Source: Escherichia coli O127:H6 str. E2348/69 (GTDB lineage: Bacteria > Pseudomonadota > Gammaproteobacteria > Enterobacterales > Enterobacteriaceae). Taken from it: a stretch of DNA of 64,000 nt. The stretch's first letter is position 1. Each line of letters begins with the position of its first letter. The stretch is taken from NCBI RefSeq assembly GCF_000026545.1, contig NC_011601.1; one strand, given 5' to 3'. The position numbers were made by a program. Positions 9,001 to 12,000 of the stretch are shown piece after piece.

Positions 9001-12000
9001 ATAAATCACGAGCAACCGCCGGTGTGTCATGCCATGCAGACGCGTTGCCTCCCCATTCTCGTTTATTGATTTTTCGTCCTACCAGATGCACAGAAAGATC
9101 GCTTTCATCGACGGTCAGACTCATCATCAGGCTGGAGGTGATGACCGTCATTTCCCTGATGCGAGCAGCCTGTTCGGCAGATAGTTGCAAAATACGATCG
9201 GGTTCTGTGATTTCGGTGGTAGAAAAGCGCAAAACATCGCTGCTTTCCGTCAACCGCCAGTATGGATTGTGCGATCCGAGAAAGTTGTACAACGTTGTGG
9301 ACTCCCTAACGGTTTTAATGATGCATATCCTCCGGTTAACAGCGGAGTCCGCAGTTAAATAAAAGGAACAACATGACTTACATGAAATTAACGGCGGCTA
9401 AACACATTGTTTTTTTTATATATTTATTTGTAATCCAGTTTTGGAAAAACGCCAGTTTTCAAACGAAAGTCAGTTAAAAATCTGCCGGGATATGACGAAG
9501 GTTGAGCGGGGAAATAAATATCCTCCGGCATAGCCGGAGGTTTTTCAAATGCGCCTATAAGGCTCTCTTACCAGCCGCGCCCTAACAGGCGCACACGATC
9601 TGACATTTGCATCCAACTTCGTTACTTACGGCCCGTAAACGGGCTGCCCGGATAGGGAATCGATAACTGCTCTCCCATTTTATCCTCTTCAAGCTGGTGC
9701 TTTATGTAATCCTGTATCTTCGCCGTGTTCTTACCCACCGTATCGACGTAATACCCTCTGCACCAGAACTCCCTGTTCCTGTACTTGAATTTCAAATCAC
9801 CAAACTGCTCGTAAAGCATCAGACTGCTTTTCCCTTTCAGATATCCCATAAAGCCGGATACGCTCATTTTGGGCGGGATCTCCACAAGCATATGGATATG
9901 ATCTGCACAGCATTCAGCTTCCAGAATCCGTACACTTTTCCACTCACACAGCTTTCTCAAAATACAGCCTATTGCTCTACGCTTCTCTCTGTAGAACACC
10001 TGTCTTCGGTATTTTGGCGCAAATACTATGTGATATTTACAGTTCCATCGGGTGTGCGCTAAGCTCTTTTCGTTCCCCATTGGGACCCCCTTTTGATTTC
10101 TTGTTTGACACTTGCAGTTGCCAGACCGCAAGGTGTTTTAACAAATCAAAAGGGGTTTTAATAACTGGCTCAAAGCTGAAAGCTTTCCGGAACCCCCAGC
10201 CTAGCTGGGGGTTTTCTGTGCACAATAAACGGCCCATCCATGAGGAATGGGCCGTGAAAGGAGATTACGCGACTGGGCGCGCAATAATGCTGCGGGTTTC
10301 CATGCGGACTTCGGCAATGGTGACGTCAATAACGTCAGTCACTTTGTAAGCCGTTTCACCTTTAATTTGTACAGTGCCGTTTTCCTGGCTGCAAACCAGT
10401 TCATCGCGCACAGCGTGTAAGAAAGGTGCTGGAATAAAGGCGATAGCGCCGTTATCAACCAAACGAACACGCATGCCGCCACGGCTGATATCGACAATTT
10501 CCGCCGCGAAACGGGTGTCGGTCCCGGCTTTGTCTTTCAGGAAGCGTGCGTATAACCAGTCGCCAACATCACGTTCTGCTATCCGGTTGAGACGGCGACG
10601 CTCGGCCATTTGGACAGTGATTTCATCCTGTGGACGCGTCGCAGTTTCGCCTTTGATAACCGCTTTCAGCAGACGGTGGTTGATCATGTCGCCATATTTA
10701 CGGATCGGCGAAGTCCAGGTGGCGTATGCTTCCAGACCGAGGCCAAAGTGAGGACCGGGTTCAGTGCTAATTTCAGCAAATGACTGGAAGCGACGAATGC
10801 GGCTGTCGAGGAAACCAGTTGGTTGCGCATCCAGTTCACGACGCAGTTTGCAGAAACCGTCCAGCGTGAGCACTTCTTCAGCATCGACATGCAGACCGTG
10901 CGTTTTCAGCAACGCTGCCAGCGCGTCGGCATTCGCCGGATCAAAGCCCATATGCACGTTATAGATGCCAAAACCGAGCTTATCGCGCAGTACGCGGGCC
11001 GCACAAATGTTAGCGGCAATCATCGCTTCTTCGACGATACGGTTGGCAATGCGACGAGGCTCGGCGACGATATCCAGCACTTCACCTTTTTCACCGAGAA
11101 TAAAGCGGTAATCCGGGCGATCTTTAAACACCAGTGCGTGGTTATGACGCCACTCGCCGCGGCGTTGGCAAATTTGTGCTAGCAAACGGACTTGTTCGGC
11201 AATTGCTTCGCTTTCAGGCTGCCAGTCACCGGTATTTTCCAGCCAGTCAGAAACCTGGTCATACACCAGCTTCGCTTTGGATTCGATGGTGGCGGCAAAG
11301 AATTCGATATTATCTTCAATGGTGCCATCAGTGGAGAGCGTCATGCGGCATGCCAGTACCGGGCGGACTTCATTGGCGCGCAGTGAGCAGAGATCGTCAG
11401 AAAGCTCGCGAGGCAGCATAGGGATGTTGAAGCCAGGCAGATAGTTGGTGAATGCGCGAATTTTCGCGGCTTTGTCCAGCTTGCTGCCTTCAGCAATCCA
11501 CGCGGTTGGATCGGCAATCGCCACAATCAGCTGAAGTTTGCCATCCGGTAACGCCTTGGCGAAAAGGGCGTCATCCATATCTTCTGTGCTGGCACTGTCG
11601 ATGGTGACAAAATCCAGCGCAGTCAGATCTTCACGAACCAGACCTTCATCGAGCATTTCGGTAGCGACGCCGTCTGGTGCTTCTTTTTCCAGATTATGAC
11701 GCGCAAGGGTAACCCACCACGGTACAAAGTGATCGTCACCAAAAGTGATGTATTGTGTCAGTTCAGCATAGAAAGAACGATCGCCTTTCAGCGGATGACG
11801 GCGCATTTCGGCAACCGCCCAGTCGCCTTCTTTAAACTCGTGGTTCAGGCCACGGGCTGCGCGGCAAGGAATGGCGTCTTTTAAGAGTGGATGATCAGGA
11901 ACGATGGCCAGACGGTCATTTTTGCCCTGAACTTTACCCACGAAACGAGTCAGGAACGGTTCAACCAGTTCTTCTGGCTCTGCGGATTCACGTTCTTTTT

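What the first reader, a model, noticed from the sequence alone, without database searches (positions are those of the whole stretch)
9293..10260. IS200 inserted between the pdeR upstream region and the rnb terminator
A complete IS200-type unit (Y1 transposase plus the characteristic long leader inverted repeat at 10086..10154 and hairpin at 10191..10218) lies about 230 bp upstream of pdeR and immediately beside the rnb terminator hairpin at 10231..10257. I do not recall IS200 at this position in K-12. Its position could alter pdeR promoter architecture.
Basis: partly seen in the sequence, partly recalled or inferred. Interest (0 to 1): 0.35.

Follow-up and report, generated by a model that had tools for sequence, protein, structure and literature searches.

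The report
IS200 copy behind the rnb terminator
This is an ordinary, intact and already annotated copy of the small mobile element IS200 in enteropathogenic E. coli E2348/69; it sits exactly at the end of the rnb transcription terminator, a type of site that IS200-like elements turn out to use almost every time.

Summary
The window is E. coli E2348/69 (100% identity), and RefSeq already annotates an IS200C transposase here. Comparison with empty sites (K-12, 536) and six IS200C copies at other loci places the element at 9513..10223 on the minus strand, 711 bp. It is not 9293..10260, which adds 220 bp of native pdeR/ymiB intergenic DNA and the rnb terminator. The copy is complete: a 152-aa Y1 transposase with the HUH motif and catalytic Tyr, the left-end hairpin, the 5'UTR stem-loop (Rfam STnc490, 146 bits) and the right-end hairpin. 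There is no target duplication. The site is polymorphic: 31 of 5426 complete E. coli genomes carry it, and K-12 does not. All native DNA between pdeR and the rnb terminator is kept, and the element ends in terminator-like hairpins, so an effect on the pdeR promoter is unlikely, though untested. The insertion point is the last T of the rnb terminator T-tract. The same junction arose at least four times on different flank haplotypes. In addition, 97 of 111 IS200-type left flanks from more than 15 taxa are hairpin plus T-run, against 1% of random sequence. The feature is already known and of low interest. The terminator targeting is the only part worth following up.

The parts
9513..10223 (-). 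IS200C element, 711 bp. Left end (LE) at 10223 (GTGCACAGAAAACCCCC...), right end (RE) at 9513 (...CCGGAGGATATTTATT).
   Evidence: The K-12 and 536 empty sites give a 711-nt insert, with a 6-nt AATAAA ambiguity. Six other IS200C copies at other loci share exactly these ends. Removing the same 711-bp unit from the htpX-yebQ copy restores a sequence 300/300 identical to other genomes.
9622..10080 (-). tnpA, a 152-aa Y1 (HUH) transposase with an intact reading frame.
   Evidence: Pfam Y1_Tnp, E 1.7e-37. RefSeq WP_000526113.1, 'IS200C family transposase'. Homologous to solved TnpA structures, including IS608 2a6m (E 1e-18); in the alignments shown (2ec2, 2f4f) the HIH motif and the Tyr of QDYIKHQ are aligned.
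10191..10213 (-). LE subterminal hairpin (IS nt 11-33), AACCCCCAGC-TAG-GCTGGGGGTT. In Salmonella IS200 this is described as a bidirectional terminator that blocks incoming transcription.
   Evidence: Perfect 10-bp inverted repeat. Fold energy -18.7 kcal/mol. Functional role taken from PMC4513863.
10087..10155 (-). tnpA 5'UTR stem-loop (IS nt 69-137), reported to sequester the Shine-Dalgarno sequence. This region also encodes art200/STnc490.
   Evidence: 16-nt arms, 94% complementary. Fold energy -35.3 kcal/mol, z -3.7. Rfam STnc490 match at 10090..10213, 146 bits. Role taken from PMC4513863.
9522..9540 (-). RE subterminal hairpin CCTCCGGC-TAT-GCCGGAGG, followed by ATATTTATT. It is terminator-like on both strands.
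   Evidence: Terminator-like on both strands in the scan. Fold results. Conserved in all copies compared.
9550..9593 (-). Second inverted repeat in the right-end region (IS nt 631-674).
   Evidence: 13-nt arms, 85% complementary. Function not examined.
10224..10255 (-). Native rnb intrinsic terminator: hairpin at 10229-10255 plus T-tract TTTATT (10224-10229 on the minus strand). This is the insertion target; the LE abuts the last T.
   Evidence: Terminator scan. Fold energy -19.6 kcal/mol, z -4.0. Present and uninterrupted in K-12 and 536.
9293..9512 (.). Native pdeR-ymiB intergenic DNA, not part of the IS. It contains the pdeR start (ATT at 9317-9319, minus strand) and ymiB at 9373..9477(+).
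   Evidence: 96-99% identical to 5410 of 5426 genomes up to position 9518. Annotation. YmiB name. ATT start.

Best explanation
An intact 711-bp IS200C insertion sequence (IS200/IS605 family, IS200 group, tnpA only) lies on the minus strand at 9513..10223 of E. coli E2348/69. It inserted without target duplication immediately 3' of the TTTATT T-tract of the rnb intrinsic terminator, in the same orientation as rnb.

Shown: its identity, completeness, exact junctions and polymorphism, and the recurrence of this same junction on different flank haplotypes.

From the literature on Salmonella IS200: the LE hairpin blocks transcription coming in from rnb. The 5'UTR stem-loop, the antisense RNA art200 and Hfq keep TnpA translation very low.

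Inferred, step 1: insertion followed the family's single-strand 'peel and paste' route. The T-rich cleavage sites at the target and at the RE may be read by the GAAAA motif that precedes both the LE and RE hairpins. The terminator hairpin plus T-run is favoured because it resembles the element's own RE (hairpin plus ATATTTATT).

Inferred, step 2: the insertion is regulatory-neutral for pdeR. All native upstream DNA is kept, and the IS presents a terminator-like hairpin towards both pdeR and ymiB.
For: Identity: the window is 100% identical to E2348/69, where tnpA is annotated as IS200C family. Supporting hits are Pfam Y1_Tnp, solved TnpA homologues with aligned HUH and Tyr and Rfam STnc490 at 146 bits.

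Ends: established by empty-site alignment, identical termini in 7 copies at 7 loci and a precise empty-site reconstruction.

Polymorphism: the site is occupied in 31 of 5426 genomes, while 5410 carry the pdeR upstream region.

Independent insertions: the junction is the same in 8 sampled strains. Flank haplotypes differ within 12 nt of the junction (GGTTGAGC, GGTAGAGC, GGTGGAGC). E2348 and M1/5 flanks group with empty-site strain 536, and LSN03 groups with empty-site K-12. The S1bESBLb IS differs at 29/710 positions from that of strain 98210, although their flanks differ at only 9/2900.

Terminator association: 7 of 7 E. coli copies lie behind the terminator of a co-oriented upstream gene. Of 111 unique LE flanks, 97 are terminator-like, including 23 of 25 Y. 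pestis IS1541 copies, against 1.1% of random 60-mers and about 10% of TTTNTT sites. Tandem copies occur in which the LE abuts another copy's RE (L098, L077).

Insulation: terminator-like hairpins are found at the RE on both strands. The roles of the LE structures come from PMC4513863.
Against: No experiment here shows that this copy is active; IS200 is reported as nearly immobile in the laboratory (PMC4513863, PMC12594629). The terminator association could partly reflect survival of harmless insertions rather than targeting. The proposed GAAAA guide and RE mimicry are inferences by analogy with IS608, not tested. By GC skew, the element's top strand here lies on the leading-strand template, opposite to the lagging-template preference I recall for IS608 and ISDra2 (my own knowledge). 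The pdeR and ymiB transcription start sites were not found in the literature searched, so a regulatory effect cannot be formally excluded. No ISfinder reference sequence was available for a direct alignment.
Confidence: 0.9

Rival explanations
1. The IS200 insertion rewires pdeR expression, through a new promoter, loss of an upstream element or read-through from tnpA. This would affect c-di-GMP and curli control in EPEC.
For: The IS lies 193 nt upstream of the annotated pdeR start and is co-oriented with it. It replaces the DNA that normally follows the intergenic region, and the rnb T-tract context changes from TTTATTTCCCC to TTTATTGTGCA.
Against: All 193 nt between pdeR and the old terminator are unchanged apart from strain SNPs. 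The scan found no sigma-70-like promoter in 9200-10350 on either strand. The RE hairpin followed by ATATTTATTT is terminator-like in the direction of pdeR. The tnpA promoter is described as intrinsically weak (PMC4513863). The divergent ymiB ORF lies between the IS and pdeR.
Confidence: 0.08
2. The element is a degenerate or partial IS200 relic.
For: IS200 is widely regarded as nearly immobile and ancestral (PMC12594629). Truncated IS200 fragments do exist in E. coli plasmids and chromosomes.
Against: It is a full 711-bp unit with both ends identical to six copies at other loci. The 152-aa ORF is intact and keeps the catalytic motifs. Identity to copies elsewhere is 99% or more. Rfam covers the model end to end, positions 1-124 of 124.
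Confidence: 0.02
3. The insertion happened once and spread among lineages by homologous recombination, or was ancestral and lost by precise excision. The rnb terminator would then not be a recurrent target.
For: E. coli recombines frequently, and IS200/IS605 elements excise precisely, so loss leaves no scar (family knowledge). The IS copies of E2348 and LSN03 differ at only 2/710 positions.
Against: Flank SNPs that separate the haplotypes lie within 12 nt of the left junction. A 4%-divergent IS variant occupies the same position on a flank nearly identical to that of a strain carrying the common variant. Only 31 of 5426 genomes are occupied. The general terminator pattern at more than 100 other sites predicts recurrence.
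Confidence: 0.12
4. The association of IS200 with terminators results only from purifying selection, because insertions behind terminators are harmless. It would not reflect target recognition.
For: A preprint reports terminator-like sequences over-represented upstream of several IS families and interprets this as limiting transposase expression (10.1101/2025.07.22.666184).
Against: The position is nucleotide-precise, with the LE starting right after the T-run. Flank positions -1 to -6 are T in 75-100 of the 111 flanks, and orientation is constant. Selection alone would scatter insertions across intergenic DNA. Only about 10% of TTTNTT sites are terminator-like, against 87% of the LE flanks.
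Confidence: 0.15

Closest known systems
IS200 of Salmonella enterica / IS200C of E. coli (IS200/IS605 family, IS200 group)
   Same: It has a single 152-aa Y1 transposase. The LE hairpin is at nt 11-33 and the 5'UTR stem-loop at nt 69-137, compared with the published nt 12-34 and 69-138. It matches the STnc490/art200 region, is about 710 bp long, and has no inverted terminal repeats and no target duplication.
   Different: Nothing essential differs. It is the E. coli IS200C variant, and its location (the rnb terminator) is strain-specific.
IS1541 of Yersinia pestis / Y. pseudotuberculosis
   Same: It has the same LE hairpin sequence, the same RE architecture and the same placement behind hairpin plus T-run flanks (23 of 25 copies examined).
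   Different: The first LE bases differ (GTGCCCAG against GTGCACAG). The host and copy number also differ.
IS608 (Helicobacter pylori) and ISDra2, the mechanistic models of the family
   Same: They carry a homologous TnpA (E 1e-18 and 4e-16), subterminal hairpins and insertion 3' of a short target sequence without duplication.
   Different: IS608 and ISDra2 also carry tnpB and recognise TTAC or TTGAT without any requirement for a target hairpin (my own knowledge, with PMC5934647 for TTAC). IS200 sites here are T-runs preceded by a GC hairpin.
Bacterial class C group II introns
   Same: They insert just downstream of the stem-loop of Rho-independent terminators (PMC7923331). This is a functional analogy for terminator targeting.
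   Different: They are retroelements with a ribozyme and reverse transcriptase, and share no sequence or mechanistic relationship with IS200.

Membership tests
IS200/IS605 family, IS200 group | Encodes a Y1 HUH transposase (TnpA) with the HUH motif and a catalytic tyrosine | tested here: met
   Pfam Y1_Tnp, E 1.7e-37. Alignment to solved TnpA chains shows HIH and the Tyr of QDYIKHQ conserved. The ORF is an intact 152 aa.
IS200/IS605 family, IS200 group | tnpA only, with no tnpB, and a size of about 700-710 bp | tested here: met
   The unit is 711 bp and tnpA is the only ORF with a protein-family match.
IS200/IS605 family, IS200 group | No terminal inverted repeats; subterminal hairpins at LE and RE | tested here: met
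   LE hairpin at 10191-10213 and RE hairpin at 9522-9540. The termini GTGCAC... and ...TTTATT are not inverted repeats of each other.
IS200/IS605 family, IS200 group | Insertion without target-site duplication, next to a short specific flank at the LE | tested here: met
   Empty and occupied sites differ by exactly the 711-bp unit. The LE flank is always a T-run.
IS200/IS605 family, IS200 group | IS200-type left-end RNA elements: terminator hairpin, SD-sequestering 5'UTR stem-loop and the art200/STnc490 region | tested here: met
   Rfam RF01405 scores 146.4 bits against a gathering score of 56, over the full model length. The 5'UTR fold is -35.3 kcal/mol, z -3.7. Expression of these RNAs was not tested.
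IS200/IS605 family, IS200 group | Repeated in genomes with the same ends at different loci | tested here: met
   8 places in E2348/69, and 2063 E. coli genomes carry a copy covering at least 80%. Seven loci were compared.
IS200/IS605 family, IS200 group | Transposition through a single-stranded circular intermediate catalysed by TnpA | not testable with these tools
   There is only population evidence of mobility: the same site is occupied independently on different haplotypes.
Intrinsic (Rho-independent) terminator of rnb | GC-rich hairpin followed by a T-run directly downstream of the stop codon | tested here: met
   Scan hit at 10255-10229 with tail TTATTGTGCA. Fold z -4.0. Conserved in empty-site strains. 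Termination activity was not tested.

The most novel reading that the evidence does not exclude
IS200-group elements (IS200, IS200C, IS1541 and relatives in Vibrio, Mailhella, Bacillota and others) are structure-directed. They integrate with single-nucleotide precision at the 3' end of the T-tract of intrinsic terminators, co-oriented with the terminated gene. The likely reason is that a terminator on single-stranded DNA mimics the element's own right end (hairpin plus T-rich cleavage site read by a GAAAA guide). This makes particular terminators, such as that of rnb, recurrent natural hot spots. It also shows that IS200, regarded as essentially immobile, has moved repeatedly in recent E. coli history. 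[quoted passage not shown] I could not check the older IS200 reviews, so it may already be described.
Probability: 0.35. Interest if true: 0.55.

Novelty: already known. Interest (0 to 1): 0.2.

Why it matters
As a finding it matters little. It is a correctly recognised, annotated IS200C copy in a well-studied EPEC strain, placed where it is least likely to disturb neighbouring genes. It has some use as a lineage marker, since 31 of 5426 genomes carry it. It is also a clean natural example of how IS200 chooses its sites. If terminator mimicry is the targeting rule, it would explain three things: why IS200 insertions are so silent, why these elements persist at low cost, and why tandem copies and insertions at attenuators (for example pheL-pheA in Yersinia) occur. 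It would also offer a hairpin-guided variant of the programmable IS608 targeting principle.

Tried and rejected
It returned mostly non-E. coli genomes and MAG contig ends. It could not fix the E. coli ends, but I used it for the flank census.
- The Rfam hit Ysr202 at 9474-9545 (30 bits against a gathering score of 315) only matches the RE hairpin used as a generic terminator. I rejected it as spurious. The MIR8139 and sR47 hits are chance.
- A literature search for the pdeR/yciR promoter or transcription start site returned only unrelated papers, so promoter positions remain unknown to me.
- The IS200/IS605 review (doi 10.1128/microbiolspec.MDNA3-0039-2014) and Beuzon 1999 (PMC148624) are not held. 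Prior description of IS200 target choice could therefore not be checked fully.
- My attempt to measure the spacing between the hairpin foot and the insertion point was unreliable, because A-tract/T-tract pairing extends the stems. I make no spacing claim.
- A first script failed on file names.
- I considered and rejected three readings: relic, fixed ancestral element, and single-origin spread (see the rival explanations).

Full report
**What is there**

The region reads, on the minus strand: rnb (10265..12199), a GC hairpin plus T-run, a 459-nt ORF (9622..10080), then pdeR (7334..9319). The ORF is a Y1 transposase (Pfam Y1_Tnp, E 1.7e-37).

A 1.6-kb query spanning the site is 100% identical to three assemblies of E. 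coli E2348/69 (EPEC O127:H6). RefSeq annotates the ORF there as 'IS200/IS605-like element IS200C family transposase', flanked by rnb, pdeR and a 34-aa hypothetical gene. That small gene is ymiB in K-12.

Rfam matches the IS200 left-end RNA family STnc490 over its full length at 10090..10213 on the minus strand, at 146.4 bits against a gathering score of 56.

**Exact ends**

Alignment with the empty sites of K-12 MG1655 and UPEC 536 shows a 711-nt insert. The hexamer AATAAA is present at both junctions, which leaves a 6-nt ambiguity.

Six further IS200C copies at other E. coli loci resolve it. These lie behind htpX, luxS, pqqU, plaP, gndA and sseA. On the transposase strand every copy starts GTGCACAGAAAACCCCCAGCTAGGCTGGGGG and ends CCTCCGGCTATGCCGGAGGATATTTATT. 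The base run before the start varies from locus to locus.

The element is therefore 9513..10223 on the minus strand, with the left end at 10223. The TTTATT at 10224-10229 belongs to the rnb terminator. Removing the same 711-bp unit from the htpX-yebQ copy gives a sequence 300/300 identical to other genomes, so insertion is precise and leaves no duplication. The plaP-sbcB reconstruction differs by one base in a T-run.

The finding's span of 9293..10260 therefore includes 220 bp of native intergenic DNA and the native terminator.

**Completeness**

- The transposase is 152 aa and uninterrupted. It is homologous to solved TnpA structures, including IS608 2a6m (E 1e-18) and ISDra2 2xm3 (E 4e-16). 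In the alignments shown (2ec2 and 2f4f), the HIH motif and the tyrosine are conserved.
- In element coordinates the hairpin is at nt 11-33 and the 5'UTR stem-loop at nt 69-137. The published Salmonella IS200 positions are nt 12-34 and 69-138 (PMC4513863).
- The 5'UTR folds at -35.3 kcal/mol, z -3.7.
- According to PMC4513863, the first hairpin is a bidirectional terminator that shields tnpA from outside transcription. The second sequesters the Shine-Dalgarno sequence, and the antisense RNA art200 and Hfq further repress translation.
- None of these functions was tested here. The Rfam model matched the tnpA-sense strand, so I only claim that the region is present.

**Distribution**

The pdeR-side flank is present in 5410 of 5426 complete E. 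coli genomes, and homology stops at window position 9518 in those without the element. Only 31 genomes have the occupied arrangement, one of them with an extra IS1. IS200C itself is common: 2063 genomes carry a copy covering at least 80% of the query, and E2348/69 has 8 places. The insertion is thus neither fixed nor unique to this strain.

**Recurrence at the same nucleotide**

Eight occupied loci from different strains share the junction and orientation. The evidence for independent origins is as follows.

- Flanks fall into distinct haplotypes, and discriminating SNPs lie within 12 nt of the junction.
- The flanks of E2348 and M1/5 are closest to empty-site strain 536 (0.3-0.55% divergence).
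- The flank of LSN03 is closest to empty-site K-12 (0.21%). Others form a third group.
- IS divergence does not follow flank divergence. S1bESBLb and 98210 differ at 9/2900 flank positions but 29/710 IS positions. E2348 and LSN03 differ at 56/2899 flank positions but 2/710 IS positions.

I conclude there were at least four independent insertions at this terminator. This is an inference from eight genomes, not from a full phylogeny.

**Why this site**

In all seven E. coli loci, the left end directly follows a GC hairpin and T-run belonging to an upstream gene that is co-oriented with tnpA.

Results for the 111 distinct left flanks were:

| Sequence set | Terminator-like by a simple stem-plus-T-tail rule |
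|---|---|
| IS200-type left flanks | 97 of 111 (87%) |
| Y. pestis IS1541 copies within that set | 23 of 25 |
| Random 60-mers from the same loci | 1.1% |
| TTTNTT sites | about 10% |

Flank positions -1 to -6 are T in 75-100 of the 111 flanks. Two loci (L098, L077) show the left end abutting another copy's right end. That is expected if the right end (hairpin plus ATATTTATT) resembles a target.

Both the LE and RE hairpins are preceded by GAAAA. By analogy with the guide-to-cleavage-site pairing of IS608 (PMC5934647; my own knowledge of the Barabas/Dyda/Chandler work), this could read T-rich cleavage sites. That is inference only.

A preprint has reported terminator-like sequences over-represented upstream of IS200/IS605 elements and read this as limiting transposase expression (10.1101/2025.07.22.666184). 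IS1541 between pheL and pheA in Yersinia fits the same pattern (PMC3082878). Class C group II introns are a known analogue for terminator targeting (PMC7923331).

**Consequences for pdeR**

- The element lies beyond ymiB, 193 nt from the annotated pdeR start. All native DNA between pdeR and the former terminator is retained.
- The scan found no sigma-70-like promoter in 9200-10350.
- The right-end hairpin is terminator-like towards pdeR (tail ATATTTATTT) and towards ymiB (tail TTTTTCAAAT). It simply replaces the rnb terminator as the boundary.
- I found no published pdeR transcription start site.

An effect on pdeR is therefore unlikely but untested.

**Orientation and replication**

GC skew is positive across the window. 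This places the element's transposase strand on the leading-strand template. That is opposite to the lagging-template preference I recall for IS608 and ISDra2, and a single case carries little weight.

**Verdict**

The feature is an already annotated member of a well-known family, so its interest is low. The only part that could deserve follow-up is the nucleotide-precise, recurrent use of intrinsic terminators by IS200-group elements.

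Noticed in passing
window 9317-9319 (minus strand): The pdeR start codon is ATT in E2348/69 but ATG in all nine other strains compared (K-12, 536, M1/5, LSN03, 98210, O158:H23, GPEC464, GN25, S1bESBLb). The three E2348/69 assemblies matched at 100% identity over this region. This may lower PdeR translation in this strain.
   Followed up: partly
loci L004-L123, and L124-L130: Left ends of IS200-type elements from more than 15 taxa, including 23 of 25 Y. pestis IS1541 copies, sit directly after a GC hairpin plus T-run. This holds for 97 of 111 flanks, against 1.1% of random 60-mers and about 10% of TTTNTT sites.
   Followed up: partly
L098 (Y. pestis) and L077 (Mailhella): These are tandem head-to-tail copies. 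The left end of one element abuts the right-end hairpin plus T-rich terminus of another.
   Followed up: no
window 9373-9477 (+): This small ORF is ymiB (34 aa), divergent from pdeR. It is annotated as frameshifted in several strains (536, M1/5, LSN03, O158:H23, GN25) because of length changes in a T-run. In E2348/69 its downstream boundary is now the IS200 right-end hairpin instead of the rnb terminator.
   Followed up: partly
window 22313-23864 and 43205-44756: There is a perfect 1552-nt inverted repeat: two ISEc13 (IS4 family) copies that bracket 19.3 kb carrying sapABCDF, pspF-pspABCDE and ycjM-ycjS. One copy splits the GH65 gene (ycjT). Gene orientation matches my recollection of the K-12 map, so no inversion is evident.
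   Followed up: partly
window about 12267-13393 (minus strand): yciW is annotated as a frameshifted pseudogene in E2348/69, although ORF listing shows a 410-aa ORF at 12239..13471.
   Followed up: no
window about 29500-30000 (between ymjA and pspF; L138 15553-15976): Only a partial hypothetical CDS lies between pspF and ymjA. From memory, K-12 carries the puu (putrescine utilisation) cluster at this position, so it appears to be absent in E2348/69. The K-12 arrangement is my recollection and was not checked.
   Followed up: no
window 1-64000: GC skew is positive throughout. rnb, IS200 tnpA and pdeR are therefore on the lagging nascent strand, and the IS top strand lies on the leading-strand template.
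   Followed up: no
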